Source: a virus
Lineage: Duplodnaviria; Heunggongvirae; Uroviricota; Caudoviricetes
DNA: 64,000 nucleotides
Virus record (IMG/VR): IMGVR_UViG_3300042400_000444
Reading direction: 5' to 3' (one strand)
The notes under the pieces are model-generated. The model had not been told where the DNA came from. It did no database searches and was given only the letters and a program-made list of their open reading frames with translations. The position numbers were made by a program, and so were the translations under genes. The first letter of the stretch is position 1; the number at the start of each line of letters is the position of its first letter. Below, piece by piece: positions 1,567-40,378 of this stretch.

Positions 1567-3129
1567 ATGGCTAAATCCTTAGAAGGCGTACTTGTAAAAC
1601 GTGCGCACCAAACAGAAACATTTACTGAAGAACAAATCCTAGAATTCGCGCGGTGCGCCGACCCTATTACGGGTCCACAGTATTTTATGAGCCATTACTT
1701 TTACATACAGCATCCTACTAAAGGTCGTATGCTGTACCAACCGTTTGATTACCAAACGCGACTTATTGATACATACCACAACTATCGCTTTAGTATTTCG
1801 TTAATGCCACGACAAACGGGTAAGTCAACATCTGCTGCAGGTTACTTGTTATGGTATGCAATGTTTGTGCCAGATAGCACTATTCTAATTGCCGCACACA
1901 AATACACAGGTTCACAAGAAATTATGGCACGTATACGTTATGCATATGAATTATGTCCTGATTTTATACGTGCCGGCGCAACAAGTTACAACAAAGGTAG
2001 TATAGACTTTGAAAATGGTAGTAGAATTAACTCATCGACTACAACAGAAAATACCGGACGGGGTATGTCTATATCATTACTATACTGTGATGAGTTTGCA
2101 TTTGTACGCAGTACAATCGGTAGAGAATTCTGGACTTCTATTAGTCCTACACTAGCAACAGGTGGTAAATGTATTATCACATCAACTCCAAACTCAGACG
2201 AAGACCAATTTGCTACCTTATGGAAAGGAGCCAACAAATGCATTGATGAATTTGGCAATGCCACTGAACTTGGAGTTAATGGGTTTAAATCATTCCGTAG
2301 CTTTTGGCGTGAACATCCAGAACGAGATGATAAATGGGCAAACGAACAACGTAGTCAATTAGGCGATGAACGATTCCGTCGTGAAATGGATTGTGAATTT
2401 ATCATTTGGGACGAAACATTAATTAATCCCGGGCATTTAATTGAAATGTCTGGTATTGACCCAATTGAGCGCCAAGGGCAAATACGTTGGTATAAAAAGC
2501 CAAGCCCAGCAAACACATATCTTGTTGCATTAGACCCAAGTTTAGGCACAGGTGGTGACCCCGCCGCAATACAAATATTTGAATTGCCTAGCTTTATACA
2601 GGTAGGCGAATGGCAACACAATCGCACACCAATACAGCAACAGATTGGTATACTTAGAGAAATCACACGTTACCTAGCAGAAACAGTGCCAGTGAACAAT
2701 ATATACTATAGTATGGAAAACAATACAATTGGTGAAGCGGCACTAATAACAGTAGCAGAAATGGGCGAAGAAAATATCAAAGGAACATTTTTAAATGAAC
2801 CTAAGAGTATGGGTTCTGGCAGACGCTATCGCAAAGGATTTAACACCACAAACAAAAGCAAAATATCAGCTTGTTCTAAATTAAAAAATCTAATTGAAAC
2901 TAAGCGTATGACTATTGCTAGTAAGAACTTAATATCAGAATTAAAAACATTTGTTGCCAGTGGCTCTAGTTTCGCTGCAAAACCTGGTGAAACAGATGAC
3001 TTAGTAATGAGCTTGGTATTAATAGTACGTATGGCAATGCTATTACAAACCTATGATGCAACACTTGATAACGCTATGCGTGATACACTTGATGACTTTA
3101 TAGAACCTATGCCATTCATACTTTTCTGA
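1567..3129 (+). CDS. terminase large subunit (T4 gp17-like)
   Basis: 520 aa. Walker A-like PRQTGKSTS; C-terminal DDLVMSLVL matches the T4 gp17 HDDLVMSLV region; overall gp17-like architecture. Confidence 0.85.
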   Translation: MAKSLEGVLVKRAHQTETFTEEQILEFARCADPITGPQYFMSHYFYIQHPTKGRMLYQPFDYQTRLIDTYHNYRFSISLMPRQTGKSTSAAGYLLWYAMFVPDSTILIAAHKYTGSQEIMARIRYAYELCPDFIRAGATSYNKGSIDFENGSRINSSTTTENTGRGMSISLLYCDEFAFVRSTIGREFWTSISPTLATGGKCIITSTPNSDEDQFATLWKGANKCIDEFGNATELGVNGFKSFRSFWREHPERDDKWANEQRSQLGDERFRREMDCEFIIWDETLINPGHLIEMSGIDPIERQGQIRWYKKPSPANTYLVALDPSLGTGGDPAAIQIFELPSFIQVGEWQHNRTPIQQQIGILREITRYLAETVPVNNIYYSMENNTIGEAALITVAEMGEENIKGTFLNEPKSMGSGRRYRKGFNTTNKSKISACSKLKNLIETKRMTIASKNLISELKTFVASGSSFAAKPGETDDLVMSLVLIVRMAMLLQTYDATLDNAMRDTLDDFIEPMPFILF

Positions 3130-3195: not shown

Positions 3196-3843
3196 ATGTT
3201 ATTTATTAATAACAAATATACACGTATATATTATAGCATTATATCTAATGCGCAACTAAGAATATTATCAAAAGAAACATATACAGAAACGCATCATATT
3301 ATACCAAAAAGCATAGGTGGTAGCAATCTAATAGATAATTTGGCTATACTAACCGCAAGAGAGCATTTTGTGTGTCATTGGTTACTTACTAAAATGGTAC
3401 ACGGCAAGCATCAAGAGTTAATGATATATGCCTTGAGAATGATGAATTGTACAGGCAAAAAGCAACAGCGATATAAAACATTAATAACAAGTAGAGTTTA
3501 TGCAAAGTTAAAGGCGCAATTTTCTATAATACACAGTAATAGAATTATTACCGATGAAGTCAGACATAATATGTCGGTTGGTCAAACAGGCAAAAAACAC
3601 TCGGATGCAACTAAGGCAAAATTTTCTAAAAATAGAATTGGCACTACATGGTCTGAAGAATCAAGACAAAAAATGCGTGGCCGGGTTATATCCGAAGAAA
3701 CCCGGCAGAAGCTACGAGATCGAATAGTATCTGACAAACAACGTGCGCAAGTAAGCGCAACACATAAAGGTAAAATAGTATCGGAAGAAACAAAACAAAA
3801 GATGCGAGAAGCCTATCAACGACGTAAGCAGGACAAAAGCTAA
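3196..3843 (+). CDS. HNH homing endonuclease with NUMOD3 repeats
   Basis: HHIIPKSIGGSN...DNLAILTAREH is an HNH motif. C-terminus has repeated xSEETKQKMR NUMOD3-like units. Inserted between terminase and the downstream gene. AT-rich. Confidence 0.75.
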   Translation: MLFINNKYTRIYYSIISNAQLRILSKETYTETHHIIPKSIGGSNLIDNLAILTAREHFVCHWLLTKMVHGKHQELMIYALRMMNCTGKKQQRYKTLITSRVYAKLKAQFSIIHSNRIITDEVRHNMSVGQTGKKHSDATKAKFSKNRIGTTWSEESRQKMRGRVISEETRQKLRDRIVSDKQRAQVSATHKGKIVSEETKQKMREAYQRRKQDKS

Positions 3844-8817: not shown

Positions 8818-10020
8818 GTGTCAACCGTTATTAACATTGTACCCGACAATTTATCAAACAGAGACTATTACTGTTCGATGAAGTTTCGTATGCTGAAAGT
8901 GGATATCGAATCGGGTACTACTTATAATTGTCATGCGGCAACTCCTCATAAAATTGATTTTAATTGGTTACGTGCTCATCCAGGACAATTATTTAATTCG
9001 GAAATTAATATAACTGAACGTCGTATGATGTTAGAAAATCAACGTAATGCTAGTTGTGAACAAAATTGTTGGCCTGCTGAGGATATAAGTGCAATCAGTC
9101 CTCGGCTTTTGCAAGAAGGCACTAAAAAAACTCATACTGAAATAATAGCATCTCCTGAAATTTTAGATTTAACTATAGGTTCTAATTGTAATTTATCATG
9201 TTCATATTGCTGTAAAGAATTTAGTAGTTCGTGGCGTAATGATATTTTACAAAATGGCGATTATTTATTAACTGATGATAATAAACGATACAGTGTGAAT
9301 TCGACAGACAGAATTCTAAACAAACTTAGTTATAATAAAATTCATAATAGTAAATCAATACAATACTTGTACAATGAAATAACTTTATGGAGTGCAGATC
9401 TTAAACAACTTGTAATTACCGGTGGTGAACCATTTCTAGATAATACTTTATTAGATATCATTGACTCAGCCAAGTCAATTCCGATAATAGAAATTTATAC
9501 AGGACTAGGAGTCAATCCTTCGAGGTTTGCTCGAATACTAAAACAATTATCATTATTTAAAAATATCATATTAATTATAAGTGCCGAGGGAATAATGCAA
9601 TTTTTGGAATTTAATCGGTATGGGATTGACTGGGAAGAATTTAAACAAAAAATAGTTCAACTTGAAAATTCTGGAATTGACTTTAAATTTCAATCTACTA
9701 TTACTAATTTAACATTATTTGGATTTGCTGACTTTTATAAATATTTTAATCAACACCGAATCGAATTAAATTTTGCTTATCAACCCAACATGATGGCACC
9801 GTATGTACTTGATCCGGCAAGTAAACAAATAATTTTAGATACACTCCAAAAAATATTGCCAGAATCGGAATTTAAAAAAATACAAATGTCGATTAATCAA
9901 ACTCCAACTAACTTGCAGAGAATTAATATAAAAGAATTTTTAACGGAATTTACAAGACGTAGACCGGATATCAGCACAGATATCTTTCCAAAGTCATTTA
10001 TAAATTGGATCAATGAATAA
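8818..10020 (+). CDS. radical SAM enzyme (paralogue A)
   Basis: CNLSCSYC is a CxxxCxxC motif. GGEPFL glycine-rich SAM motif. N-terminal C..K..CH motif shared with the ORF at 24302. GTG start immediately after the upstream stop. Confidence 0.8.
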   Translation: MSTVINIVPDNLSNRDYYCSMKFRMLKVDIESGTTYNCHAATPHKIDFNWLRAHPGQLFNSEINITERRMMLENQRNASCEQNCWPAEDISAISPRLLQEGTKKTHTEIIASPEILDLTIGSNCNLSCSYCCKEFSSSWRNDILQNGDYLLTDDNKRYSVNSTDRILNKLSYNKIHNSKSIQYLYNEITLWSADLKQLVITGGEPFLDNTLLDIIDSAKSIPIIEIYTGLGVNPSRFARILKQLSLFKNIILIISAEGIMQFLEFNRYGIDWEEFKQKIVQLENSGIDFKFQSTITNLTLFGFADFYKYFNQHRIELNFAYQPNMMAPYVLDPASKQIILDTLQKILPESEFKKIQMSINQTPTNLQRINIKEFLTEFTRRRPDISTDIFPKSFINWINE

Positions 10021-10475: not shown

Positions 10476-10725
10476 TCCAGTAGACGAATTATTAGAGCAA
10501 TGGGAAGAAATGAAATATTGTTCCTCTCATATTACTCCAACAGATGACATCGACATATTAGATTATATGCGTCGCAAAGGGCAACTTATGGCATATTCAC
10601 AAGAATTGCGCTATGCAAGGTTGCAGAATAATACAGAAGTTGAAGCAGAGTATACAACAAAATTTATAGAAGCATACACTAACTTCAGCAGAGACTTTAT
10701 TTTTAGGATTTTAAAAAATGGCTAG
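10429..10725 (+). CDS. hypothetical protein (start uncertain, possibly ATG at 10459)
   Basis: ORF overlaps the end of uvsY. Confidence 0.3.
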   Translation: MLDCVQQEWKMQQSINPVDELLEQWEEMKYCSSHITPTDDIDILDYMRRKGQLMAYSQELRYARLQNNTEVEAEYTTKFIEAYTNFSRDFIFRILKNG

Positions 10726-11614
10726 ACATGCACTTAGGGTATTAAATCAACTCAGAGAATACGATAGTTTTCTTGACAGTTTACACACAATTGTAGACAT
10801 GGGTTGCGGAACCGGCGAAGACATTACGTGGTGGGCAACATTAGAAACACGTGATGACCCACCAGTACCACACAATTATAATTGTTTTGCTGTTGATCGC
10901 GACCCTGCTAAACTAGATCAAGTGCCTGATCTTAAAAATATACACAAAACTAAACAAGATTTTAATACACGTTGCATACCCGTACAAGCTGATTTAATGT
11001 GGGCACATGATAGTTTACAGTATAGCACTAACCCAATCGAAACATTAAAAGTATGGAATGAGCAAATGAATGTTGATGCTATGCTAGTATTGAGCATACC
11101 GCAACATTCCGGAGTTGCAGACAATAGGTACTATAGTCGTACACATAGCGGATGTTTTCATAACTTTACTCCGACTAGTTTAATTTATATGCTTGCAGTA
11201 AATGGATTTGATTGTAAAGATGCATATATGCTTAAAGAATTTAATGATCCGTGGATTCATATTGCTGTATACAAATCAGATGTTGCACCGAAAGATGCAG
11301 ATACAACGTCGTGGCTTGATTTAATTGATAGTGGATTATTGAATCAGACTGTAATCAATTCAATTACTTCATATGGTTATTTGCGCCAAGAGGATATTTT
11401 ATATCCATGGTTAGATAAAGAGAACTATTTTATTGATTATGTAAGCCAACAGACAGTAATTCCTGCAGAAGCTGTACACAATGATGCTGGTGTAGTTAAT
11501 ACTAAAAAACAAGCCAAAAAATCTACAGTAAAGCAAGCGAAACCAACAAGGGTAGAAACTACAATAGCAAAACCGGTTGGTGTAATGCGTCCACCTAAGA
11601 AAAACTATGATTAA
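10718..11614 (+). CDS. class I SAM-dependent methyltransferase
   Basis: VDMGCGTGED motif I. Confidence 0.6.
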   Translation: MARHALRVLNQLREYDSFLDSLHTIVDMGCGTGEDITWWATLETRDDPPVPHNYNCFAVDRDPAKLDQVPDLKNIHKTKQDFNTRCIPVQADLMWAHDSLQYSTNPIETLKVWNEQMNVDAMLVLSIPQHSGVADNRYYSRTHSGCFHNFTPTSLIYMLAVNGFDCKDAYMLKEFNDPWIHIAVYKSDVAPKDADTTSWLDLIDSGLLNQTVINSITSYGYLRQEDILYPWLDKENYFIDYVSQQTVIPAEAVHNDAGVVNTKKQAKKSTVKQAKPTRVETTIAKPVGVMRPPKKNYD

Positions 11615-12371
11615 TAAAGTTGTACTTGTGACCGGCGGGTTTGACCCGCTTCATTCCGGGCATATAGAATATTTCAAAGCTGCTAAAGCACTTGGCAAGA
11701 TACTTGTTGTTGGTGTGAATAGTGATGCCTGGGTAGCTCGCAAGAAGGGCAGAGCATTTATGCCATCTACTGAACGTATTGCTATTATTGAAAACTTAAA
11801 GATGGTTGATCATTGCATATTGTTTAATGATAATGATAACACAGCCATTGAGGCAATTAATAACGTAAAACTAATGTACCCTAACAGTCAAATTATATTT
11901 GCCAACGGTGGCGACAGAACAGCTAATAATATTCCAGAAATGATAGTCAATGATATAGTATTTAAATTTGGCATCGGCGGCGGTAATAAGCTCAACAGTA
12001 GCAGTTGGATATTAGATGAGTGGAAAGCACCTAAAACTGACCGAGAATGGGGCTATTATCGTGTATTACATGACGTTCCGGGCCTAAAAGTGAAAGAATT
12101 AACCATTGATCCGGGCAAGCGCCTAAGTATGCAGAAACATTACAATAGATCTGAATTATGGTTTATTGCAGATGGTGAGGCAACGGTTAGTGAATATAGC
12201 ATTGTTTATCCAACTGCTCTACAAAATCCACATCTACCTAAACATTCGACCCATCGCATACCAGAAGAACAATGGCATCAACTTGCTAACCCATACGACA
12301 GACCCGTTCGCATAATTGAAATACAATATGGCGATATCTGTGTTGAGGATGACATAGAACGTAAAGCATAA
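11607..12371 (+). CDS. cytidylyltransferase-family nucleotidyltransferase fused to a cupin domain
   Basis: GGFDPLHSGH (HxGH nucleotidyltransferase motif, TagD/RfaE-II family). C-terminal cupin-like segment LSMQKHYNRSELWFIADGEA. Confidence 0.6.
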   Translation: MINKVVLVTGGFDPLHSGHIEYFKAAKALGKILVVGVNSDAWVARKKGRAFMPSTERIAIIENLKMVDHCILFNDNDNTAIEAINNVKLMYPNSQIIFANGGDRTANNIPEMIVNDIVFKFGIGGGNKLNSSSWILDEWKAPKTDREWGYYRVLHDVPGLKVKELTIDPGKRLSMQKHYNRSELWFIADGEATVSEYSIVYPTALQNPHLPKHSTHRIPEEQWHQLANPYDRPVRIIEIQYGDICVEDDIERKA

Positions 12372-15766: not shown

Positions 15767-15849
15767 TTGTAGATAGTCCTGTTGGGCCAGGAGCCTAGTC
15801 ATGCTAGGTCAAGATCGCAACTTGTTGGGTTCGATTCCCAGTCTACAAT
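15767..15849 (+). tRNA. tRNA-like with apparent CAT anticodon and a long variable arm; no encoded CCA
   Basis: Perfect 7-bp acceptor TTGTAGA/TCTACAA. T-arm TTGGG-TTCGATT-CCCAG. Anticodon arm GCCTA-GTCATGC-TAGGT. 15-nt variable arm CAAG-ATCGCAA-CTTG. Confidence 0.45.
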
Positions 15850-16122: not shown

Positions 16123-18192
16123 TTAACATGAACTAATAGGGATATATTTTTTCTCTTTAGCAGTTTGTTCTAATAGTAGTTTATTTTTTGCTCGGGTCTC
16201 GGAAGAGATAGTTTCGATACAGTTATCGACCCAGCCAGATTGACTTTCGGTAACAATAGTAGCATGAGTACTTTCTTTAGTCCAATAACCAGTACCGGCC
16301 CACTCAAAGTTAAAACTTTTAGTACCAGTCATCCATGGTTCGCCGGGGTGTACTAGTTTGTGTGTAAAGTTACCTGAGAATTTACCAGCATCGTCAATTT
16401 TAAATTGAATAGTATATGCGTGGTCGTCACAGGCTAACATAGATCCGAATTCTGCATGGTCTATTTGTTTATCGGCTGTTTGATTAAATTCAAACCCGCC
16501 TTTGATTAACCATACCATTCTAAGGAAATGCCATATTTCGTTAACGATGCTATTAGCAAATGGTCCTAAGTTAGTGTTAATGATATTAAAATTAAATTCT
16601 TCGTTATCTATAGTGTCAACTGCATATGATGGATTATTAAATTCTATATTATAAAAATTTAATAAATTTGGTCTGTAATGACCATTTATAATATAATCGC
16701 CGTGCTGTTTGCACAGCGTCAACCAGATATTAAGTAATTTTAATCTTATAAGTTTAGATGCTTTATTGTTAGACCAATCCAACGACCACCACCAACCTTC
16801 GTAACGATTATCGGTGGGGCTTACGTCGTAGCGTTGGCGGTTAAATCCGAAATCAGATTGGTCGTTATCGCCAAAGGTCATACCTGGAGATATAACTTGA
16901 ATATTATTTCGATTGTTCCATAGCAACGATAAACTATGTGCAGATGCAATGGCATCTTCATTAGGAAATCCAACAATCCAGTTAACTAGTACCATAATGT
17001 TAGCAGATCTACAATCTTTAAGATTATTGTTAATTTCGTCAAGTGTGATTTTTTTATTCATTAAGTCTAGTACTTTTTGACTACCACTTTCGACCCCAAA
17101 ACTTAGATGTTCGCAACCACTTTGTTGCAACTCAATGAAATAGTCAAGGTCCATACGTCCGTCGCATCGAGCATAACCCATCCATCGGATGTGTAATTGT
17201 TTTTCGATTACTCCTGATGCAAATGCACGTAGTTCTTTAAGATTGCCATTTACGAGGCTGTCGATGAACCATAACGTTTTTACACCGTATGTTTTTACTT
17301 GAAATTCAACTTCGTCTAACAGCGTATGTGCTTGCCTATCGCGAAATTTCCAGAACCAAGTTTCTGTACAAAAACTACATTGGGCAACACACCCCCTGCT
17401 TAGTTCTGCACTGACACCATTGGACGTTTTGTAAATAGATAAATCGTAATCTGTGTAATCGGGCATTGGCAACGTATCTAGATTAAGTCTGGTATTACTA
17501 TACGTTGCTCCTAGTTTAACAGGCATTTCAATGTTGTTTTCGATATTATCTAATATATCTAGGATAGCTTGTTCGCCTTCGCCAGTTACCCAATGGTCAA
17601 CTCCGTCCATTGGTACAAAATGTGGGTCGTGGCATGAGGGCCCACCGACAATAATTTTTATATTAGGTAATCGTTTTTTTAATTCGGCAATTACAAATTT
17701 AGTTGGTTCGATGTTTGTATCGTATAAGCTAAAGCCTACAACAGTTGGGGAACTATCGATAATTTGTGATATGTATTTGATTAGGTATGGGTGTAGTGTA
17801 GGATGGAGTTTTTCATAATAGTCCAACCCTAACCACCACCAGTATTTTGCAGAATCCCATGCATCATCTAAATTAACAGATTTTAACTCGCGATACAATT
17901 CTCCGTTAAAATCGAATATGCTAGTAGCATATCCAGCGGCACGGGTTACAGCACTTAACCTAGCTAAATTATATGGAGGAAAATAAACACCCCAGCACCC
18001 TAATAGGCAGAGAGTAAATTTAATTTTTCGGGTAGCTGTAGTGGTTTGTAAATTTTGAAAATTCCTGCGTTGCCGAGGCACAGCATCTTGATCTTGTTTG
18101 GTTAATAAATTTTCAGCAATCCAGGCGTGTTTATCGGGGATGTCGGGTTGAGTAGTCATACAAATATTTATAGTAATAAAAGAGGTTGACAA
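16123..18192 (-). CDS. B12-binding-domain (class B) radical SAM enzyme
   Basis: 689 aa. SRGCVAQCSFC is a CxxxCxxC motif. The preceding Rossmann-like VVGFSLYDT...IIVGGP is typical of the cobalamin-binding domain of class B rSAMs. The only large minus-strand gene in the window. Confidence 0.85.
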   Translation of the reverse strand: MSTSFITINICMTTQPDIPDKHAWIAENLLTKQDQDAVPRQRRNFQNLQTTTATRKIKFTLCLLGCWGVYFPPYNLARLSAVTRAAGYATSIFDFNGELYRELKSVNLDDAWDSAKYWWWLGLDYYEKLHPTLHPYLIKYISQIIDSSPTVVGFSLYDTNIEPTKFVIAELKKRLPNIKIIVGGPSCHDPHFVPMDGVDHWVTGEGEQAILDILDNIENNIEMPVKLGATYSNTRLNLDTLPMPDYTDYDLSIYKTSNGVSAELSRGCVAQCSFCTETWFWKFRDRQAHTLLDEVEFQVKTYGVKTLWFIDSLVNGNLKELRAFASGVIEKQLHIRWMGYARCDGRMDLDYFIELQQSGCEHLSFGVESGSQKVLDLMNKKITLDEINNNLKDCRSANIMVLVNWIVGFPNEDAIASAHSLSLLWNNRNNIQVISPGMTFGDNDQSDFGFNRQRYDVSPTDNRYEGWWWSLDWSNNKASKLIRLKLLNIWLTLCKQHGDYIINGHYRPNLLNFYNIEFNNPSYAVDTIDNEEFNFNIINTNLGPFANSIVNEIWHFLRMVWLIKGGFEFNQTADKQIDHAEFGSMLACDDHAYTIQFKIDDAGKFSGNFTHKLVHPGEPWMTGTKSFNFEWAGTGYWTKESTHATIVTESQSGWVDNCIETISSETRAKNKLLLEQTAKEKKYIPISSC

Positions 18193-18339: not shown

Positions 18340-19020
18340 TATTAAAGCACATTGTGAAGCACTATGTAAATAGTATCACGAGGGCCATGTAGTGAGAAGG
18401 CAGTAGCCAAGTCTGGGAAGGCAACTTGTTCGGGATGGAGTCTATAGGTAGGAAGTCATGATCCTACTGGACCGAGTCAGCAAGTCATACGTAGGTTCAA
18501 ATCCTACCTGCTAACATAATGTTTCACAGTGTGCTTTAATATGGTAGTATCAGTTATATGTGAGTCATACACGGGACTGGCGTAAGAAACACATTGGGGC
18601 TCGGAACCCCTGCACATATAACACAATGACACAAAGGTAGTTGCAATCTACCCGGCGTGGTCGCAGACGTATACGGTCTTTTCCGTTCAATTCGGAGTGT
18701 TATTGGATATACCATATAAAAACACATTCTTCAAAGAATACAGGGTTCAATTCCCGGCCGTTGATCACGGAACTGCCAAGGTGGTGAGTGTGTTTCTATA
18801 TGGTAGTAATGGCAGAGGCAAGGATTAATTACCCATGCTGAGCGACCTGGAAGCGGGTGGACAAACGTGACTGTGGGCCACTAAGGTAGTCAACATTACT
18901 CGCCATATAAAAGCACACTTAATGCGTAGGCCACGCAGAGTCATGGATGATAGCATTGCCCCGTAAGGAGCAGTGTCGGTGGGTTCAATTCCCGCATAGT
19001 GTGTTTCTATATGGTTATAT
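18336..19020 (+). repeat. non-coding block with three nested pairs of ~25-bp inverted repeats flanking short tRNA-fragment-like segments
   Basis: Arm consensus ACCATAT(A/T)AAA(G/A)CACA / TGTGTTTCTATATGGT. Plus-sense arms at 18336, 18708, 18903; reverse arms at 18520, 18781, 18993. No ORF of 60 aa or more on either strand. Confidence 0.5.
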
Positions 19021-19466: not shown

Positions 19467-19541
19467 GGGGGTATAATTCAATGGCTAGAATATCCGGCTT
19501 TTACCCGGACTATCAGAGTTCAAATCTCTGTGCCCTCACCA
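19467..19541 (+). tRNA. tRNA-Lys (anticodon TTT)
   Basis: Acceptor GGGGGTA/TGCCCTC with G-U pairs, anticodon arm TCCGG-CTTTTAC-CCGGA, T-arm CAGAG-TTCAAAT-CTCTG, CCA. Confidence 0.7.
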
Positions 19542-19874: not shown

Positions 19875-19948
19875 TCCGGTGTAGTATAATGGCAGTGCGA
19901 CGGTCTCCAAAACCGTTAGTGGGGGTTCGATTCCCTCCACCGGAGCCA
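19875..19948 (+). tRNA. tRNA-Trp (anticodon CCA)
   Basis: Acceptor TCCGGTG/CACCGGA, anticodon arm ACGGT-CTCCAAA-ACCGT, T-loop TTCGATT, CCA. Confidence 0.7.
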
Positions 19949-19962
19949 GTTTCAAATAGTGG

Positions 19963-19991
19963 TTGACAGCAAATATCAAAAATGCTACACT
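19963..19991 (+). promoter_or_regulatory. sigma70-type promoter inside the tRNA island
   Basis: TTGACA-N17-TACACT. Confidence 0.5.
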
Positions 19992-20021
19992 ATATAGATA
20001 GTAACAAATAAGTAAATGGAA

Positions 20022-20074
20022 GAAAGCCGTAACAATATGTATTCGAGGTTAGGAGAGTACGGCAAACCGTCCAA
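20022..20074 (+). ncRNA. conserved 52-nt structured element, copy 1 (second copy at 23301)
   Basis: GAAAGCcGTAACAaTATGTATTCGAGGTTAGGAGAGTACgGCAAACCG. The GCCGTA/TACGGC stem covaries with GCTGTA/TACAGC in copy 2. Could alternatively encode a 14-15-aa peptide MYSRLGEY(G/S)KP. Confidence 0.4.
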
Positions 20075-20168
20075 GGGTAGCTGATGCCTGTGGTGCAACT
20101 CCACCGTTGAAATCAGTCATGATTCTGCACATGATAACAGGCCTGTATTTGGCCGCAGAACTTTTATC

Positions 20169-20242
20169 GCGGTGGTGGGCTAATTGGCAAGCCGTAGGGC
20201 TCATAACCCTGAGACGAGGTTCGAATCCTCCGACCGCAACCA
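20169..20242 (+). tRNA. tRNA with CAT anticodon (Met/Ile2 class), slightly non-canonical
   Basis: D-arm GGCT-AATTGGCA-AGCC, anticodon arm TAGGG-CTCATAA-CCCTG, T-loop TTCGAAT. Acceptor GCGGTGG/CGACCGC has one G-G mismatch. 3' ACCA. Confidence 0.5.
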
Positions 20243-20260
20243 AATACACAGGGGAATAAC

Positions 20261-20428
20261 ATGGCAATTAAAAAAGCAAACTCAATGACTACACGTACAG
20301 GCAAACCTAGACTAGGTCCACTGAATTTAACCCAACTAAATACATTGTTGGATAAAACTAGCAAAGGTAAAGATAAAGCAAAACTCCGTAATAGAATTGC
20401 TGTATTGGAATCACGCTTAGTTAAATAA
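20261..20428 (+). CDS. small basic protein (55 aa)
   Basis: RBS CAGGGGAATAACATG. K/R-rich. Confidence 0.35.
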   Translation: MAIKKANSMTTRTGKPRLGPLNLTQLNTLLDKTSKGKDKAKLRNRIAVLESRLVK

Positions 20429-20434
20429 GTTTTT

Positions 20435-20519
20435 GCCGGGTTGCGCCGAATGGGATGGCACCTGACTTGTAATCAGGCTTCGTAAGATAGAGAGTGTTCG
20501 ATTCACTCACCCGGCACCA
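20435..20519 (+). tRNA. type-II-architecture tRNA (long variable arm, 3-bp D-stem) with apparent TGT (Thr) anticodon
   Basis: Acceptor GCCGGGT/ACCCGGC perfect. Anticodon arm CCTGA-CTTGTAA-TCAGG. Variable arm CTTCGTAAGATAGA. T-arm GAGTG-TTCGATT-CACTC. CCA. 85 nt. Confidence 0.55.
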
Positions 20520-20524
20520 GTAAT

Positions 20525-20599
20525 GCCCAGTTAGCAGAGTGGTAATGCGCCTCACTTGTAATGAGGATATCGGCGGTTCGATTCCGTCACTGGGCACCA
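20525..20599 (+). tRNA. tRNA-Thr (anticodon TGT)
   Basis: Acceptor GCCCAGT/ACTGGGC, anticodon arm CCTCA-CTTGTAA-TGAGG, T-arm GGCGG-TTCGATT-CCGTC, CCA. Confidence 0.7.
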
Positions 20600-20607
20600 A
20601 GTATTAA

Positions 20608-20692
20608 GCCTCTTTGGTGGAATTGGTATACACGTTGGTCTTAGAAGCCAATGCTGAAAGGCTTGAGAGTTCGAGTCTCTCAGGGGGCACCA
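20608..20692 (+). tRNA. tRNA-Leu (anticodon TAG), type II
   Basis: Acceptor GCCTCTT/AGGGGGC (G-U pairs), anticodon loop CTTAGAA, long variable arm, T-arm GAGAG-TTCGAGT-CTCTC, CCA. Confidence 0.65.
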
Positions 20693-20749
20693 AAAAATTT
20701 TATAGAGTAAAGTCTGATCGGTAAATACCCGTACAACGGAGATAAATTT

Positions 20750-21493
20750 ATGTTTGAATGGTATTGGGCGTTTGTATTCGGGTATATAGTACATACTATA
20801 ACAGTAATTGTAGTTTCAATTTTCCTGCATCGAATGTATGCACATAAGCACTTGTTATCCACGCCGGCATTTGATACAATGAGTCGAATTTGGTTATGGA
20901 TGGTAGGCGCATATTGGCCTAAAATTGCAAGAATATTTGCAGCAGTGCATAGAAAGCACCATGCTATGCCGGACACACTAGATGATCCACATACACCATG
21001 GATATATTCATGCCGTGAATTATTATTTCCTACGACAGACAGGGAAAAAGGCAAAGCATATTACATGCCGCCTGAAGAAAGAGATAGTATTGCAGGTGAT
21101 GTACCGGCATTCGATGATAAGTTGGATATATTCTTAATGAAGTATCTACCATACAGTAAGATACCATTGGTATTAGTATTCTTAACGTTATTTTCATGGC
21201 AAGGTGCTATAATTGGGTTTGTGTGGTTAACTATATCTCGGTACAGCGGAAGATTACATAATTGCGTATCGCACAAATATGGATATAGATGGCAACCAGC
21301 AAAAACAGAAGGTGACCGTTCAGTAAACTGCTTACCGATTGGGTTAGTATTCGGCGGTGAGGAATTAGGAGCCAATCATCATGATTATCCAGATTTGGTT
21401 AACTTTGCAATTAAGTGGTACGAATTTGATACAGGGTGGTATGTTGTTAAAGTATTAGAATTTTTTAAATTAGTAAAAATTGTTAAATCTTAA
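20750..21493 (+). CDS. membrane fatty-acid desaturase (stearoyl-CoA desaturase-like), paralogue 1
   Basis: His boxes HRMYAH, HRKHH(AMPD), NHHDYP. Hydrophobic N-terminal segments. Confidence 0.65.
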   Translation: MFEWYWAFVFGYIVHTITVIVVSIFLHRMYAHKHLLSTPAFDTMSRIWLWMVGAYWPKIARIFAAVHRKHHAMPDTLDDPHTPWIYSCRELLFPTTDREKGKAYYMPPEERDSIAGDVPAFDDKLDIFLMKYLPYSKIPLVLVFLTLFSWQGAIIGFVWLTISRYSGRLHNCVSHKYGYRWQPAKTEGDRSVNCLPIGLVFGGEELGANHHDYPDLVNFAIKWYEFDTGWYVVKVLEFFKLVKIVKS

Positions 21494-22345: not shown

Positions 22346-22424
22346 TTCCGCAGAATCCGAGCTAGGCGCACGGACTTGACTGTTAATCAATGATTAGCTG
22401 GGTTCGAATCCCAGATGCGGAGCC
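22346..22424 (+). tRNA. tRNA-Asn (anticodon GTT)
   Basis: Acceptor TCCGCAG/ATGCGGA (6/7), D-stem TCCG/CGGA, anticodon loop CTGTTAA, T-arm CTGGG-TTCGAAT-CCCAG, CCA. Confidence 0.6.
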
Positions 22425-23598: not shown

Positions 23599-23618
23599 AG
23601 TTTTATAGTAAGAAATTA

Positions 23619-23712
23619 GGAGAGCTGGCCGAGTGGTCGAAGGCACTTCCCTGCTAAGGAAGCATACGGGCTTAACCCTGTATCGAGGGTTCGAATCTCA
23701 CCGCTTCCGCCA
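23619..23712 (+). tRNA. tRNA-Ser(GCT)-like with non-pairing acceptor stem (possible pseudogene)
   Basis: D-arm and anticodon arm CTTCC-CTGCTAA-GGAAG, long variable arm, T-loop TTCGAAT. The 5' end GGAGAGC does not pair with the 3' end CGCTTCC. Ends GCCA. Confidence 0.35.
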
Positions 23713-24157: not shown

Positions 24158-24247
24158 GGAGAGTGGGCCGGACGGTAAGGCACCACCCTGCTAAGGTGTA
24201 CAACTCTTTAAACAGTTGACAGGGTTCGACTCCCTGACTCTCCGCCA
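24158..24247 (+). tRNA. tRNA-Ser (anticodon GCT), type II
   Basis: Acceptor GGAGAGT/ACTCTCC perfect, anticodon loop CTGCTAA, variable arm CAACT...AGTTG, T-arm AGGG-TTCGACT-CCCT, CCA. Confidence 0.7.
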
Positions 24248-25785: not shown

Positions 25786-25876
25786 GCTCCTGTAGTTTAA
25801 CGGTAAAACAGCGGGCTTATACCCCGTAACAACAGATAATTGGCTGATCAAGGTTCGAATCCTACCACTTCCGCCA
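25786..25876 (+). tRNA. tRNA-like (apparent TAT anticodon, 21-nt variable region) with non-pairing acceptor ends
   Basis: D-arm GTTT-AACGGTA-AAAC, anticodon arm GCGGG-CTTATAC-CCCGT, T-loop TTCGAAT. The 3' tail CACTTCCGCCA has no complementary 5' strand. Confidence 0.3.
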
Positions 25877-34835: not shown

Positions 34836-34869
34836 ATAAATATTGTATCAATTAACAAGGAACACTTCA

Positions 34870-35898
34870 ATGTCAAAAACCGTGCTGGTAACAGGTGGCG
34901 CAGGATTCATCGCACACCACGTTATCGAAAACTTACTTAAAAACACAGATTGGAATATCGTTAGCTTAGATCGTTTAGACTTTTCGGGTAACTTAAACCG
35001 ATTAGCTGATATGATGGAAGACTTTCCGTTAGAAACACGTAAACGTGTTAAGATTGTATTTCATGATTTACGTGCAGAAATTAATCCAATGGTAGCACGT
35101 GAGATTGGCGATGCAAACTTTGTATTACACTTGGCGGCAGGTTCGCATGTAGATCGCAGTATTGATTATCCAATGGAATTTGTAATGGATAACGTAGTCG
35201 GTACAGGTCACGCATTGCAATTTGCACGTACATTGCCTAACTTAGAACGCTTTATCTATTTCTCAACTGATGAAGTATTTGGTCCAGCACCGGCAGGAGT
35301 TAATTATAAAGAACGTGATAGATATAATTCAACTAATCCATATTCGGCAAGTAAAGCTGGCGGTGAAGAGCTAGCAGTTGCATTTGAAAACACATATGGC
35401 TTGCCAATTTACATTACCCATACTATGAATGTGTTTGGTGAAAGACAGCATCCTGAGAAGTTTATTCCTATGTGTATACGTAAAGTAAATGATGGTGACT
35501 CTATTACTATTCACAGCGATAGCACACGTACAATACCAGGCAGTCGTTATTACATACATGCCGCAGATGTTGCAGATGCAATGCACTTTTTATTAAACTT
35601 AGATCCTAGTAAGTTAACACGTGACTTTGGTGATGCAAAATGTCCTAAATTTAATTTAGTTGGTAAAGAAGAAATTGATAATTTAGCACTTGCTAAACTA
35701 ATTGCAGAAGCACAGGGTAAAGAGTTAAAATATGAAATGGTAGACTTCCACAGTGCTCGCCCAGGACACGACTTACGTTATGCATTGAGCGGCGACTATA
35801 TGCGTACACTTGGATGGGAACCGAAAGTTGTATTATCGGATCGTATCGGCGAAGTGGTGCAATGGACATTAGCTAATGAGAGATGGTTGAGATGCTAA
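34870..35898 (+). CDS. NAD-dependent sugar epimerase/dehydratase (dTDP-glucose 4,6-dehydratase-like)
   Basis: GGAGFIAHH Rossmann motif. YSASK catalytic YxxxK. Start refined to ATG 34870 (ORF from 34843). Confidence 0.7.
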   Translation: MSKTVLVTGGAGFIAHHVIENLLKNTDWNIVSLDRLDFSGNLNRLADMMEDFPLETRKRVKIVFHDLRAEINPMVAREIGDANFVLHLAAGSHVDRSIDYPMEFVMDNVVGTGHALQFARTLPNLERFIYFSTDEVFGPAPAGVNYKERDRYNSTNPYSASKAGGEELAVAFENTYGLPIYITHTMNVFGERQHPEKFIPMCIRKVNDGDSITIHSDSTRTIPGSRYYIHAADVADAMHFLLNLDPSKLTRDFGDAKCPKFNLVGKEEIDNLALAKLIAEAQGKELKYEMVDFHSARPGHDLRYALSGDYMRTLGWEPKVVLSDRIGEVVQWTLANERWLRC

Positions 35899-39643: not shown

Positions 39644-40378
39644 ATGTCATATAAAACTAAACATTTGCTATTAATTATAGTCAGCGCAATATTGGCGCTA
39701 ACCTTGCCGTTCTATATTCATATCGCATGGTATGCTCCGCTGATTATTTTTGCGATATGCAATTTAACTAAAGGAATCGGAAGTGAAGTTGGTGCTCATC
39801 GATTATGGACACATAAAAGTTTTAAGACAAGTCCGTTATATGAACGCATAATAATATTATTAAACACATTATCTGGCGAAGGTAGTATTGTTGCGTTTGT
39901 TGGAATTCATCGTGCGCACCATGCACATTCTGATACAGCTCGAGACCCGCACAATCCTCATACTAATTTTTGGGGCACTATATTTTATCAACACAATATC
40001 GAATCGTTTAGCCCACGTTCCATTGTTGATGTAATACGCGATCCATTGTTGGCATTTCAACACCGTCATTATTTTAGAATACAGGCAGTTATCTTAATAA
40101 CGCTTGCATTGATTTCTCCGCTTGCACTTTGGTATTATGCAGTTAATGTGTGGATGACCCTTTGGATTAATTTTTTAGTTAATGTAGTTTGTCATATGTA
40201 CGGGCCAGCAGATAACAAAATGCCGGATACTAGTACAAATAATTTTTGGGCTGGCTTCTTTTTACTTGGCGCGAACCTACATAATAATCATCATGCTCGT
40301 CCGAGCGAATATGATAATGCCTGGGGCAACTATAAGTTTGATATATGGGGCAATATCATCAGACTAATCAAAAGTTAA
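39644..40378 (+). CDS. acyl-CoA/acyl-lipid delta-9-type fatty-acid desaturase, paralogue 2
   Basis: Canonical SCD His boxes HRLWTH, HRAHHAHSD, HNNHH. Hydrophobic TM segments. Confidence 0.7.
   Translation: MSYKTKHLLLIIVSAILALTLPFYIHIAWYAPLIIFAICNLTKGIGSEVGAHRLWTHKSFKTSPLYERIIILLNTLSGEGSIVAFVGIHRAHHAHSDTARDPHNPHTNFWGTIFYQHNIESFSPRSIVDVIRDPLLAFQHRHYFRIQAVILITLALISPLALWYYAVNVWMTLWINFLVNVVCHMYGPADNKMPDTSTNNFWAGFFLLGANLHNNHHARPSEYDNAWGNYKFDIWGNIIRLIKS

What the first reader, a model, noticed from the sequence alone, without database searches (positions are those of the whole stretch)
20435..20519. Type-II-scaffold tRNA (long variable arm) carrying a Thr (UGU) anticodon; other type-II-like tRNAs with CAU and UAU
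tRNA 20435-20519 has a perfect acceptor stem, 3-bp D-stem, 14-nt variable arm and anticodon loop CTTGTAA, identical to the canonical tRNA-Thr immediately downstream (20525-20599). Long variable arms are normally restricted to Ser/Leu/Tyr(/Sec) tRNAs and are the main SerRS identity element. Two further loci show the same combination: 15767-15849 (CAT anticodon, 15-nt variable arm) and 25786-25876 (apparent TAT, 21-nt variable region, unpaired acceptor). These could be anticodon-switched tRNAs capable of codon reassignment or mistranslation, or decoys for host nucleases or synthetases.
Basis: partly seen in the sequence, partly recalled or inferred. Interest (0 to 1): 0.7.

Follow-up and report, generated by a model that had tools for sequence, protein, structure and literature searches.

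The report
Phage threonine tRNA with extra arm
A giant-phage tRNA gene that reads the threonine codon ACA carries an extra hairpin arm normally seen only on serine, leucine and tyrosine tRNAs. It belongs to a conserved, mostly viral family that looks like a genuine threonine tRNA rather than a miscoding one.

Summary
Window 20435-20519 is an 85-nt tRNA with anticodon UGU and a 14-nt variable region, by ARAGORN and by Rfam's tRNA model (49.7 bits).

It is not a one-off. The same architecture occurs in 66 IMG/VR stretches, in cultured Sinorhizobium and Pseudomonas phages, and chromosomally in Cytophagales and Eremiobacterota. Across 52 members the variable arm is a 3-4 bp hairpin, often GNRA-capped, with compensatory changes at every pair.

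The "anticodon-switched Ser/Leu/Tyr tRNA" reading is not supported.
- The tRNA carries every listed bacterial ThrRS determinant: G1-C72, C2-G71, G4-C69, G5-C68, G35, U36.
- It lacks the SerRS determinants G73 and G2-C71.
- In 16 of 22 large phage tRNA arrays it is the only Thr tRNA.
- ACA is the phage's main Thr codon and swaps freely with other Thr codons in orthologues.

Best reading: a working tRNA-Thr(UGU) of an apparently undescribed class-II-shaped lineage. What the arm does is unknown; shielding against tRNA nucleases such as PARIS AriB is speculation.

The CAU locus is a tRNA-like element with an abnormal anticodon loop. The UAU locus is a decayed tRNA.

The parts
20435..20519 (+). Long-variable-arm tRNA-Thr(UGU), 85 nt including the encoded CCA
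   Evidence: ARAGORN; Rfam RF00005 49.7 bits; family model R1 65.6 bits, the top hit in the window.
20435..20441 (+). Acceptor stem 5' strand GCCGGGU. It pairs with 20509-20515 (ACCCGGC) and carries G1-C72, C2-G71, G4-C69 and G5-C68.
   Evidence: Sequence. Bacterial Thr identity set from PMC9976931 Table 1. Pair 6:67 is G:C here and C:G in 19 relatives.
20442..20444 (+). Three-nucleotide connector U-G-C between the acceptor and D stems, one more than the canonical two
   Evidence: ARAGORN drawing. Both covariance models insert one nucleotide here.
20445..20459 (+). D arm: stem GCCG/UGGC, loop AAUGGGA (A14, G18, G19, A21)
   Evidence: The third stem pair is C:G here and A:U in relatives, a compensatory change.
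20461..20477 (+). Anticodon arm CCUGA-CUUGUAA-UCAGG, with anticodon UGU at 20468-20470. Positions 36-41 read UAAUCA.
   Evidence: UAAUC|A is the PARIS AriB cleavage motif reported for E. coli tRNA-Thr(UGU) (PMC12409363).
20478..20491 (+). Variable region CUUCGUAAGAUAGA. It forms a mini-hairpin U.U / U:A / C:G closed by a GUAA tetraloop (20479-20488), followed by AGA.
   Evidence: R1 aligns it to the family's 3-bp stem plus tetraloop. Closest subfamily members have UC-GAAA-GA and AC-GAAA-GU.
20492..20508 (+). T arm GAGUG-UUCGAUU-CACUC
20516..20519 (+). Discriminator A73 and encoded CCA
   Evidence: The canonical tRNA-Thr next door also has A73.
20525..20599 (+). Canonical 75-nt tRNA-Thr(UGU), 5 nt downstream. 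Same anticodon loop, but positions 36-41 read UAAUGA.
   Evidence: ARAGORN and Rfam 71.2 bits; anticodon arm.
20608..20692 (+). tRNA-Leu(UAG), third member of the tightly spaced tRNA cluster (spacers of 5 and 8 nt)
15767..15849 (+). tRNA-like element with CAU in the anticodon position, G32 and G37, a 15-nt variable arm and no CCA. Not a normal decoder.
   Evidence: ARAGORN only. Rfam tRNA below gathering score, tRNA-Sec 29.3 against 47. A 95%-identical copy in L012 has U33 changed to C.
25786..25876 (+). Degenerate long-variable-region tRNA-Ile(UAU)-like gene with a non-complementary acceptor stem
   Evidence: Rfam 32.8 bits, model positions 6-65 only. Not called by ARAGORN. It aligns to a well-formed 94-nt long-arm tRNA-Ile(UAU) in L077.

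Best explanation
The locus is a functional elongator tRNA-Thr(UGU) of a jumbo phage. It belongs to a conserved, mainly phage-borne lineage of 7/5 tRNAs that keep threonine identity but carry a class-II-like variable arm, typically a short hairpin of 3-4 bp capped by a tetraloop.

Proposed working, step by step:
1. It is transcribed as part of a dense tRNA array. This is inferred from the 5- and 8-nt spacers to the neighbouring tRNAs, promoter-like sites only further upstream, and no terminator-like site on the + strand between 19900 and 20800.
2. Host enzymes process it, and the CCA is already encoded. The sequence is shown; the processing is inferred.
3. Host ThrRS charges it through G1-C72, C2-G71, G4-C69, G5-C68, G35 and U36. 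The determinants are shown to be present; charging is inferred.
4. It decodes ACA, the phage's most used threonine codon. Usage is shown; decoding is inferred.

The arm is under selection, as covariation shows. Its role is not established.
For: - It is a real, conserved tRNA: ARAGORN and Rfam 49.7 bits. It is 93-100% identical in 19 contigs whose flanks align at only 52-73%, with two compensatory pair changes.
- It belongs to a family. The same anticodon arm plus a long variable region occurs in 66 viral stretches, against 46 with a normal-size variable loop. It also occurs at 12 chromosomal loci in Cytophagales and Eremiobacterota. The five Cytophagales flanking genes with domain hits are housekeeping types: G6PD, RpiB, GyrA and a DUF349 protein next to the tRNA in two genomes. 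Cultured Sinorhizobium phages phiM12/M7/M19/N3 and Pseudomonas phage vB_PpS_SYP carry it as well.
- Model R1, built from 15 other members, scores the window tRNA at 65.6 bits, above the canonical Thr (56.8), Ser (51.9) and Leu (48.1).
- On 52 members, 98.7% of cells are paired, against 28-47% in slid controls. All three variable-arm pairs show double changes in 18-20 sequences each.
- Identity. Long-arm Thr tRNAs have G1:C72 in 55/56 and C2:G71 in 56/56, with N73 = U or A, like the short Thr tRNAs of the same loci. Ser tRNAs there have G2:C71 (35/36) and G73 (27/36). The window copy has the full bacterial Thr determinant set.
- An anticodon-free, arm-free weight-matrix classifier assigns 40/55 members to Thr, 2 to Leu, and none to Ser or Tyr.
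- Role. It is the only Thr tRNA in 16 of 22 arrays with at least 12 tRNAs, including arrays covering 19-20 isotypes.
- ACA makes up 50% of Thr codons in window ORFs. ACA aligns mostly with Thr and interchanges with ACU/ACG/ACC in orthologues.
Against: - There is no expression, processing or charging evidence. None is obtainable with these tools.
- The window's subclade is the least regular member: a 3-nt connector, only a 2-bp (+U.U) variable hairpin, A15.A48 instead of a purine-pyrimidine Levitt pair, and the lowest R1 score among the 52 members (65.6 bits).
- The weight-matrix classifier is indecisive for this copy (Thr 1.9 against Leu 1.4 bits), and A73 is also the key LeuRS determinant.
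- The window also has a canonical tRNA-Thr(UGU) 5 nt away, so the long-arm copy is not strictly needed here.
- The family was collected with patterns that fix the anticodon arm and T loop, so invariance there is by construction.
- Alignment A3 was fitted to the model, which biases the pair counts toward that structure.
Confidence: 0.72

Rival explanations
1. Anticodon-switched class II tRNA. On this view a Ser-, Leu- or Tyr-type scaffold acquired a UGU anticodon, is still charged by SerRS, LeuRS or TyrRS, and inserts the wrong amino acid at ACA.
For: - It has a long variable region and a class-II-like short D stem.
- A73 and a GCC... acceptor start also occur in the phage's Leu tRNAs.
- The weight-matrix score for the window copy is nearly tied between Thr and Leu.
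- SerRS and LeuRS do not read the anticodon (PMC9976931).
- There are precedents: allo-tRNAs (PMC5389517) and nematode V-arm tRNAs (cited there).
Against: - Against Ser: C2-G71 is an antideterminant for E. coli SerRS, the discriminator is A73 rather than G73, and the variable stem is only 2-3 bp.
- Against Tyr: position 35 is G, not U.
- Against Leu: A15.A48 replaces A15-U48, there is no A20a, and 47/56 family members have U73.
- The full Thr determinant set is present.
- The family classifies as Thr without using the anticodon or the arm.
- ACA is used synonymously with other Thr codons.
- It is the sole Thr tRNA in complete phage tRNA sets.
Confidence: 0.06
2. A non-decoding decoy or inhibitor. 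The RNA mimics host tRNA-Thr(UGU) to soak up or block a tRNA-targeting nuclease, or another tRNA-binding factor, while the canonical neighbour does the decoding.
For: - The anticodon arm keeps the exact U36AAUC|A41 motif cleaved by PARIS AriB in E. coli tRNA-Thr(UGU). The canonical neighbour has G40, and the phage's tRNA-Lys(UUU) is strongly diverged there.
- The window has a second, canonical Thr(UGU).
Against: - Relatives lack any other Thr tRNA.
- A perfect acceptor stem, an encoded CCA and conserved ThrRS acceptor determinants are not needed for an anticodon-stem decoy.
- Chromosomal homologues sit among housekeeping genes in bacteria.
- No PARIS-like system is linked to the unknown host.
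Confidence: 0.1
3. A decaying or neutral duplicate. On this view it is a tRNA-Thr gene that suffered an insertion in its variable loop and is drifting toward pseudogene status, like the UAU locus.
For: - The window copy has irregular features: a 3-nt connector, a weak variable hairpin and A15.A48.
- The same island holds clearly degenerate tRNA-like genes at 25786-25876, 15767-15849 and 18400-18511.
- phiM12 and SYP have unpaired 10-12 nt variable loops.
Against: - The tRNA is 93-100% identical across contigs with diverged flanks and different neighbours.
- The differences that do occur are compensatory.
- Hairpin covariation holds across the family.
- It is the sole Thr tRNA in most arrays.
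Confidence: 0.06

Closest known systems
Canonical bacterial or phage tRNA-Thr(UGU), class I
   Same: It shares the anticodon loop CUUGUAA. Positions 36-41 (UAAUCA) match the U36AAUC|A41 motif reported for E. coli tRNA-Thr(UGU) (PMC12409363). It has the same acceptor determinants G1-C72, C2-G71, G4-C69 and G5-C68, a 7/5 acceptor/T geometry, and N73 = A or U.
   Different: The variable region is 14 nt (10-21 nt across the family) and forms a hairpin, instead of the usual 4-5 nt. The D stem has 3 Watson-Crick pairs, as in class II tRNAs. The window's clade has one extra connector nucleotide.
Bacterial class II tRNAs (Leu, Ser, Tyr, Sec)
   Same: It has a long variable arm that forms a stem-loop, a 3-bp D stem, and in most family members an enlarged D loop. 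The arm size (3-4 bp plus a tetraloop) is close to that of the phage Tyr and Leu tRNAs in the same loci.
   Different: The anticodon and acceptor identity are those of threonine. It lacks G73/G2-C71 (Ser), U35 (Tyr) and A15-U48/A20a (Leu). Reviews list only Ser, Leu, Tyr and Sec as class II (PMC7609411).
allo-tRNAs (Mukai et al. 2017, PMC5389517)
   Same: They are bacterial and phage-associated tRNAs with a long V arm and anticodons for class I amino acids.
   Different: allo-tRNAs have 8/4 or 9/3 acceptor/T geometry, Sec-like D arms and Ser (or Ala) identity, and many appear not to function in translation. This family is 7/5 with cognate Thr identity.
Nematode-specific V-arm tRNAs (nev-tRNAs; Hamashima et al., cited in PMC5389517 ref. 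8)
   Same: They combine a class II shape with class I anticodons (Gly, Ile).
   Different: They are eukaryotic. From my own recollection of that work, they are charged with leucine, so identity follows the scaffold rather than the anticodon. Here identity elements follow the anticodon.
Nuclease-resistant phage tRNAs (T5 tRNA-Lys/Thr/Asn against PARIS; PMC12409363, PMC10264068)
   Same: They are phage-encoded copies of isoacceptors that host defences target; tRNA-Thr(UGU) is a prime AriB target. The window's canonical Thr and its Lys tRNA carry substitutions at the AriB site, as T5's tRNAs do.
   Different: Known escape works through point substitutions in the anticodon stem-loop. The long-arm tRNA keeps the target sequence and differs in architecture instead. 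Any protective role of the arm is untested.

Membership tests
tRNA (Rfam RF00005) | Cloverleaf scoring above the curated gathering score of 29 bits, matched end to end | tested here: met
   49.7 bits, model positions 1-71 of 71, E=1.2e-7. ARAGORN also calls it.
tRNA (Rfam RF00005) | Conserved core nucleotides: U8, A14, G18G19, U33, purine 37, T loop UUCRAnY, 7-bp acceptor and 5-bp T stem | tested here: met
   U8, A14, G18, G19, A21, U33, A37 and UUCGAUU are present, with 7/5 stems that are all Watson-Crick. Exceptions: one extra connector nucleotide, and A15.A48.
Class II (long-variable-arm) tRNA architecture | Variable region of 10 nt or more (PMC7609411) | tested here: met
   14 nt, 20478-20491.
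Class II (long-variable-arm) tRNA architecture | The variable region forms a base-paired arm | tested here: inconclusive
   The window copy has only U:A and C:G closed by GUAA, plus a U.U mismatch. Family-wide the 3-bp stem is 91% paired, with double changes at all three pairs.
Threonine-accepting tRNA (bacterial ThrRS substrate) | Acceptor determinants G1-C72, C2-G71, G4-C69, G5-C68 (PMC9976931 Table 1) | tested here: met
   GCCGGGU / ACCCGGC (table).
Threonine-accepting tRNA (bacterial ThrRS substrate) | Anticodon determinants G35 and U36 | tested here: met
   Anticodon UGU at 20468-20470.
Threonine-accepting tRNA (bacterial ThrRS substrate) | Actual threonylation and delivery to the ribosome | not testable with these tools
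   Only indirect evidence is available: it is the sole Thr tRNA in 16 of 22 large arrays, and ACA behaves as a Thr codon.
Long-arm tRNA-Thr(UGU) family defined here (model R1) | Scores above all other tRNAs of the same genome with a model built without it, and aligns the variable hairpin | tested here: met
   65.6 bits against 56.8 for the canonical Thr and 51.9 or less for the rest. The variable region aligns as stem-GUAA-stem. It is the lowest-scoring of the 52 members.
tRNA-Ser (bacterial SerRS substrate) | G73, G2-C71 and a large variable arm (PMC9976931) | tested here: not met
   It has A73 and C2-G71, which is an antideterminant in E. coli, and only a 2-3 bp arm. The phage's own Ser tRNAs have G2:C71 in 35/36 and G73 in 27/36, with 15-24 nt arms.
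tRNA-Leu (bacterial LeuRS substrate) | A73 plus core elements A15-U48, G18G19 and A20a (PMC9976931) | tested here: not met
   A73 is present, but the Levitt position is A15.A48 and there is no 20a. 47/56 family members have U73. Cross-charging of this A73 subclade is not formally excluded.
tRNA-Tyr (bacterial TyrRS substrate) | A73 with G34 and U35 | tested here: not met
   It has U34 and G35 (table).
allo-tRNA | 8/4 or 9/3 acceptor/T-stem composition (PMC5389517) | tested here: not met
   7-bp acceptor and 5-bp T stem.
tRNA-Sec | 8/5 geometry, long D stem, UCA anticodon; Rfam RF01852 at 47 bits or more | tested here: not met
   RF00005 is the clan-best match for 20435-20519. The two overlapping same-clan matches were lower-scoring and were left out of the output.

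The most novel reading that the evidence does not exclude
Two linked claims.
1. Class II architecture is not confined to Leu/Ser/Tyr/Sec. A threonine tRNA lineage with a true variable arm is the regular tRNA-Thr(UGU) of some Cytophagales and Eremiobacterota, and it is the commoner form among phage tRNA-Thr(UGU) genes sharing this anticodon arm.
2. In phages the added arm is a counter-defence. It also appears on Asn, Lys, Cys, Ile, Val, Gly, Pro, Met and Glu tRNAs. [quoted passage not shown] In the published AlphaFold 3 model, those are the regions the two monomers of the PARIS nuclease AriB engage. The arm would therefore block such nucleases while leaving the anticodon arm, and so ThrRS recognition and decoding, unchanged.
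Probability: 0.22. Interest if true: 0.8.

Novelty: new variant of a known kind. Interest (0 to 1): 0.6.

Why it matters
Textbooks and current reviews restrict long variable arms to Ser, Leu, Tyr and Sec tRNAs, where the arm is an identity or discrimination element. A conserved lineage that joins such an arm to intact threonine identity raises several questions.
- It implies that ThrRS, a class II enzyme said to approach the tRNA from the variable-loop side (my own recollection of AspRS and ThrRS structural work), tolerates the arm.
- It asks how SerRS and LeuRS are kept off such a tRNA.
- It offers natural scaffolds for engineering tRNAs tagged in the variable arm.

tRNA-Thr(UGU) is one of the main targets of the PARIS defence, and phage arrays also hold long-arm versions of Asn and Lys tRNAs. 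The family therefore gives a concrete, testable case for architecture-based evasion of tRNA-targeting immunity, as opposed to point-mutation-based evasion. Cultured systems exist for such tests: phiM12 with Sinorhizobium meliloti, and vB_PpS_SYP with Pseudomonas.

Tried and rejected
- Megablast and blastn of 20100-20800 against INPHARED phages gave no near match. The distant hits cover only the canonical Thr/Leu part (query 453-598) and never the long-arm tRNA.
- The search for related loci with the neighbouring desaturase-like ORF returned one locus with no tRNAs, which was uninformative.
- A pattern anchored on the variable-region sequence (CTTGTAA N5 CTTCGTRAGAT) added only five coding-sequence coincidences, L022-L026, with no tRNA.
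- Nearest-neighbour comparison of fixed tRNA segments found a Leu(UAA) in L078 with 88% identity in the acceptor and T arms. Inspection showed this rests on a shared CCGGGU acceptor only, so I did not take it as evidence of ancestry.
- The anticodon-free weight-matrix isotype classifier is only 64.5% accurate and is indecisive for the window copy, though clear for the family.
- I tested whether long arms are enriched on PARIS-target isotypes. Asn is 6/21 long in long-arm-Thr contigs against 0/11 in canonical-Thr contigs (p=0.07), and Lys is 1/15 against 0/4. This is suggestive only.
- There are no matches in PLSDB plasmids or in complete E. coli genomes.
- Pfam scans of 40 window ORFs found no aminoacyl-tRNA synthetase, CCA-adding enzyme, RNA ligase or tRNA repair enzyme that could point to a dedicated partner.
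- Nine full-text literature searches found no description of a class-II-like tRNA-Thr. The library covers only open-access papers, so absence of a prior report is not proven.
Full report
**1. The observation**

ARAGORN finds 27 tRNA genes between 14015 and 28974. One is an 85-nt tRNA-Thr(tgt) at 20435-20519, directly followed by a canonical 75-nt tRNA-Thr(tgt) at 20525-20599 and a tRNA-Leu(tag) at 20608-20692. Rfam's tRNA model matches 20435-20516 end to end at 49.7 bits, against a gathering score of 29.

The sequence, the ARAGORN drawing and the Rfam alignment agree on the anatomy:
- a perfect 7-bp acceptor stem;
- anticodon arm CCUGA-CUUGUAA-UCAGG;
- 14 nt between the anticodon and T stems;
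- T arm GAGUG-UUCGAUU-CACUC;
- A73 and an encoded CCA.

The covariance model places an 11-nt insertion in the variable region and one extra nucleotide after position 9. The single-sequence fold gives the same cloverleaf (-29 kcal/mol).

Two details need correcting. The D stem is GCCG/UGGC behind a three-nucleotide connector. The variable region of this copy pairs only weakly, as UC-GUAA-GA plus a U.U mismatch.

**2. It is conserved**

An exact-pattern scan of IMG/VR (anticodon arm, 14 free positions, T arm) hit 20 contigs. In 19 of them ARAGORN calls the same 85-nt tRNA-Thr(tgt); the 20th is cut off by the end of its locus.

These copies are almost identical to one another. They differ from the window copy at 5 to 6 positions. 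Four of these are two compensatory pair changes: G6:C67 to C6:G67, and C:G to A:U in the D stem.

The tRNA body is 93-100% identical between contigs, while 120-nt flanks align at only 52-73% and the neighbouring tRNAs differ. That is the signature of a selected gene, not a decaying one.

**3. It belongs to a large family**

I relaxed the pattern to the same anticodon arm, a gap of 14-30 nt, and GTTCGAWTC.
- It found 66 viral stretches, many on 100-435 kb contigs.
- It found 12 chromosomal loci in species-representative genomes: Eremiobacterota/Vulcanimicrobiota MAGs and Cytophagales (Spirosomataceae, Fibrella, Hymenobacter with two copies). ARAGORN calls all of these tRNA-Thr(tgt), 84-91 nt.
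- With a normal-size gap, the same arm and T loop occur in only 46 viral stretches. Among phage tRNA-Thr(UGU) genes with this anticodon arm, the long-arm form is therefore at least as common as the canonical one.

The Cytophagales genes lie among housekeeping genes (G6PD, RpiB, PNP oxidase, GyrA), and a DUF349 protein adjoins the tRNA in two genomes. That points to chromosomal genes rather than prophage cargo.

Cultured phages also carry long-variable-loop Thr(UGU) tRNAs. Sinorhizobium phages phiM12, phiM7, phiM19 and phiN3 have it annotated simply as tRNA-Thr, and Pseudomonas phage vB_PpS_SYP has it unannotated.

**4. The arm is a real helix**

There are 56 unique long-arm Thr tRNAs. The usual variable region is one nucleotide, a 3-4 bp stem, a tetraloop (GNRA in about 24 of them) and three nucleotides.

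I built covariance model R1 from 15 members of the main subfamily, none from the window's clade. I then aligned 52 members to it. Pair counts on that alignment:
- 98.7% of cells are paired, against 28-47% when partners are slid by 1-3 columns.
- 17 of 23 pairs show changes on both sides.
- All three variable-arm pairs have double changes in 18-20 sequences each.
- None of 500 shuffles reaches the observed values.

There are two caveats. The alignment was fitted to the model, and the anticodon arm is invariant by ascertainment.

In the window itself, R1 scores the long-arm tRNA highest (65.6 bits), above the canonical Thr (56.8), Ser(UGA) (51.9) and Leu(UAA) (48.1). It aligns the variable region as UUC-GUAA-GAU. 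The closest subfamily members (A73, T loop UUCGAUU) have UC-GAAA-GA and AC-GAAA-GU, so the mini-hairpin covaries there too.

**5. Which amino acid?**

The identity review PMC9976931 lists these determinants:
- Bacterial tRNA-Thr: G1-C72, C2-G71, G4-C69, G5-C68, G35, U36.
- Ser: G73, G2-C71 and the large variable region, with C2-G71 acting as an antideterminant against E. coli SerRS.
- Tyr: A73, G34, U35.
- Leu: A73 plus core elements A15-U48, G18G19 and A20a.

The window tRNA has the complete Thr set. Its canonical neighbour lacks G4-C69 and G5-C68. The window tRNA fails the Ser, Tyr and Leu sets, apart from sharing A73.

Across the fetched loci:
- Long-arm Thr tRNAs have G1:C72 in 55/56, C2:G71 in 56/56, and U73 (47) or A73 (9), like the short Thr tRNAs.
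- Ser tRNAs have G2:C71 in 35/36 and G73 in 27/36.
- Leu tRNAs have A73 in 53/54.

A weight-matrix classifier using only the acceptor stem, T stem and discriminator (leave-one-out accuracy 64.5% over 20 classes) assigns 40 of 55 long-arm members to Thr, 2 to Leu, and none to Ser or Tyr. For the window copy it is indecisive, Thr 1.9 against Leu 1.4 bits. Some LeuRS cross-charging of this A73 subclade therefore cannot be formally excluded.

**6. Role in the phage**

The window has 38% G+C. ACA is its commonest Thr codon: 424 of 852, or 50%.

In ORFs orthologous between the window and the related contigs, window ACA codons align mostly with Thr (371 cases) and interchange with ACU, ACG and ACC. 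The pattern of non-Thr partners resembles that of ACU codons. I see no sign of recoding.

In 16 of 22 arrays that have at least 12 tRNAs and a long-arm Thr, it is the only Thr tRNA. Those include arrays covering 19-20 isotypes. It therefore fills the threonine slot of otherwise near-complete phage tRNA sets.

The window is unusual in having a canonical copy as well. The large terminase is 54% identical to those of Pseudomonas jumbo phages PA5oct and MIJ3. It is also related to Atu_ph07, Vibrio phage 2.275.O and the Rak2-like phages, so this is a jumbo myovirus-type genome.

Pfam scans of 40 ORFs found no synthetase or tRNA-processing enzyme. Promoter-like sites lie upstream at 19963-19991 and 20107-20135. 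There is no + strand terminator-like site within 19900-20800, which fits polycistronic transcription; this is inferred.

**7. What the arm might do (inference only)**

[quoted passage not shown] In the published AlphaFold 3 model, its second monomer contacts the D loop. T5's resistant tRNAs carry substitutions at the cleavage site (PMC12409363).

In the window:
- The canonical Thr has UAAUG|A.
- The Lys(UUU) tRNA is strongly diverged (UACCCG).
- The long-arm Thr keeps UAAUC|A, and so does an irregular, previously uncalled tRNA-Asn.

A hairpin emerging at position 44 sits three nucleotides from that cleavage site. A steric-shield role, or a decoy role, is therefore conceivable.

Long arms also occur on other class I isotypes in phage arrays: Asn, Cys, Ile, Met, Gly, Val, Pro, Lys, Glu and Arg. 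This applies to 27 of 387 tRNAs in long-arm-Thr contigs and 9 of 234 in canonical-Thr contigs. Enrichment on Asn is only suggestive, p=0.07. I rate the shield idea at roughly one in five.

**8. The other two loci**

15767-15849 is called only by ARAGORN. With Rfam it falls below the tRNA threshold; its best match is tRNA-Sec at 29.3 bits against 47. It has G32 and G37, so the anticodon loop can close to three nucleotides, and it has no CCA. Its 95%-identical copy in L012 has U33 changed to C. It is a conserved tRNA-like element, not a normal Met or Ile decoder.

25786-25876 matches the tRNA model only over positions 6-65 (32.8 bits), and its acceptor strands do not pair. It aligns to a well-formed 94-nt long-arm tRNA-Ile(UAU) in L077, so it looks like a decayed member of another long-arm lineage.

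**9. Comparison with known systems, and novelty**

Reviews restrict class II to Ser, Leu, Tyr and Sec (PMC7609411).

The closest precedents for "a long arm plus a class I anticodon" are two:
- allo-tRNAs, which have 8/4 or 9/3 geometry and Ser identity (PMC5389517);
- nematode V-arm tRNAs, cited in that paper; from my own recollection they are charged with leucine.

In both, identity follows the scaffold. Here the geometry is 7/5 and identity elements follow the anticodon.

Nine full-text searches found no description of such a tRNA-Thr. The library covers only open-access papers, and phiM12's gene has sat in GenBank annotated as an ordinary tRNA-Thr.

I file it as a new variant of a known kind: a genuine tRNA-Thr with class-II-like architecture.

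**10. Verdict**

- The mistranslation interpretation is not supported.
- The decoy interpretation remains open.
- The main value of the finding is that it exposes a conserved and apparently undescribed long-arm tRNA-Thr lineage, and hints at a wider habit of phage tRNAs acquiring variable arms.

Noticed in passing
L041 3506-3590, 4919-5004, 5332-5417, 7050-7136; L042 7501-7584; L043 10680-10765; L044 9177-9260; L046 3512-3691; L061 3502-3589; L066 2403-2597; L077 4053-4146; L081 4211-4298: Large-phage tRNA arrays hold well-formed long-variable-arm tRNAs (13-24 nt, a 3-4 bp stem plus a tetraloop) for many class I isotypes: Asn(GUU), Lys(UUU), Ile(GAU, UAU), Val(UAC), Cys(GCA), Glu(UUC), Gly(GCC, UCC), Pro(UGG), Met/CAU and Arg(CCU). 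This applies to 27 of 387 class I tRNAs in long-arm-Thr contigs and 9 of 234 in canonical-Thr contigs.
   Followed up: partly
L027-L038 (e.g. L028 4796-4880, L035 6443-6527, L036 597-681, L027 6700-6787): Chromosomal tRNA-Thr(UGU) genes with 14-21 nt variable arms occur in Cytophagales (Spirosomataceae, Fibrella, Hymenobacter) and in Eremiobacterota MAGs. The Cytophagales genes are flanked by housekeeping genes. I could not check whether they are the only UGU tRNA-Thr of these genomes.
   Followed up: partly
window 22347-22422 (+): This is an irregular tRNA-Asn(GUU)-like gene that ARAGORN misses and that falls below Rfam's gathering score. It has G73 plus CCA, A8 instead of U8, a G7.A66 mismatch and a C27.U43 mismatch, and it keeps UAAUC|A at positions 36-41. 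It would be the only Asn tRNA of the island (R1 hit at 23 bits; sequence).
   Followed up: partly
window 18400-18511 (+): This is a tRNA-like sequence (Rfam tRNA 29.8 bits, model positions 4-67) with a ~49-nt insertion in the anticodon loop region. It may be an intron-like insert or a disrupted gene.
   Followed up: no
window 19467-19541 and 20525-20599: The phage tRNA-Lys(UUU) has anticodon loop CUUUUAC, with UACCCG at positions 36-41. The canonical tRNA-Thr(UGU) has UAAUGA. Both depart from the U36AAUC|A41 motif that PARIS AriB cleaves, as the T5 escape tRNAs do. The long-arm Thr keeps the motif (PMC12409363).
   Followed up: partly
window 23618-23712 and 24158-24247: ARAGORN calls two tRNA-Ser(GCU) genes here, 95 and 90 nt, with mismatched stems. 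Neither reaches Rfam's tRNA gathering score. The first has ~80% identical counterparts in many related contigs.
   Followed up: no
window 16123-18192 (-): A 689-aa B12-binding radical SAM protein is encoded on the minus strand in the middle of the otherwise plus-strand tRNA island. A second radical SAM ORF lies at 8818-10020.
   Followed up: no
window 20750-21493 and 39644-40378; 10718-12371; 34843-35898: The window holds two fatty-acid-desaturase-like ORFs, one immediately downstream of the Thr-Thr-Leu cluster. It also holds a set of sugar-nucleotide and methyltransferase genes, which are auxiliary metabolic genes typical of jumbo phages.
   Followed up: no
window 3196-3843: An HNH/NUMOD3 homing-endonuclease-like ORF lies immediately after the large terminase gene at 1567-3129.
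   Followed up: no
L085 1599-1672 (Sinorhizobium phage phiM12, KF381361 81034-81107): Directly downstream of phiM12's long-variable-loop tRNA-Thr, the GenBank record annotates a 'tRNA-OTHER' that ARAGORN does not call. This may be another irregular tRNA.
   Followed up: no
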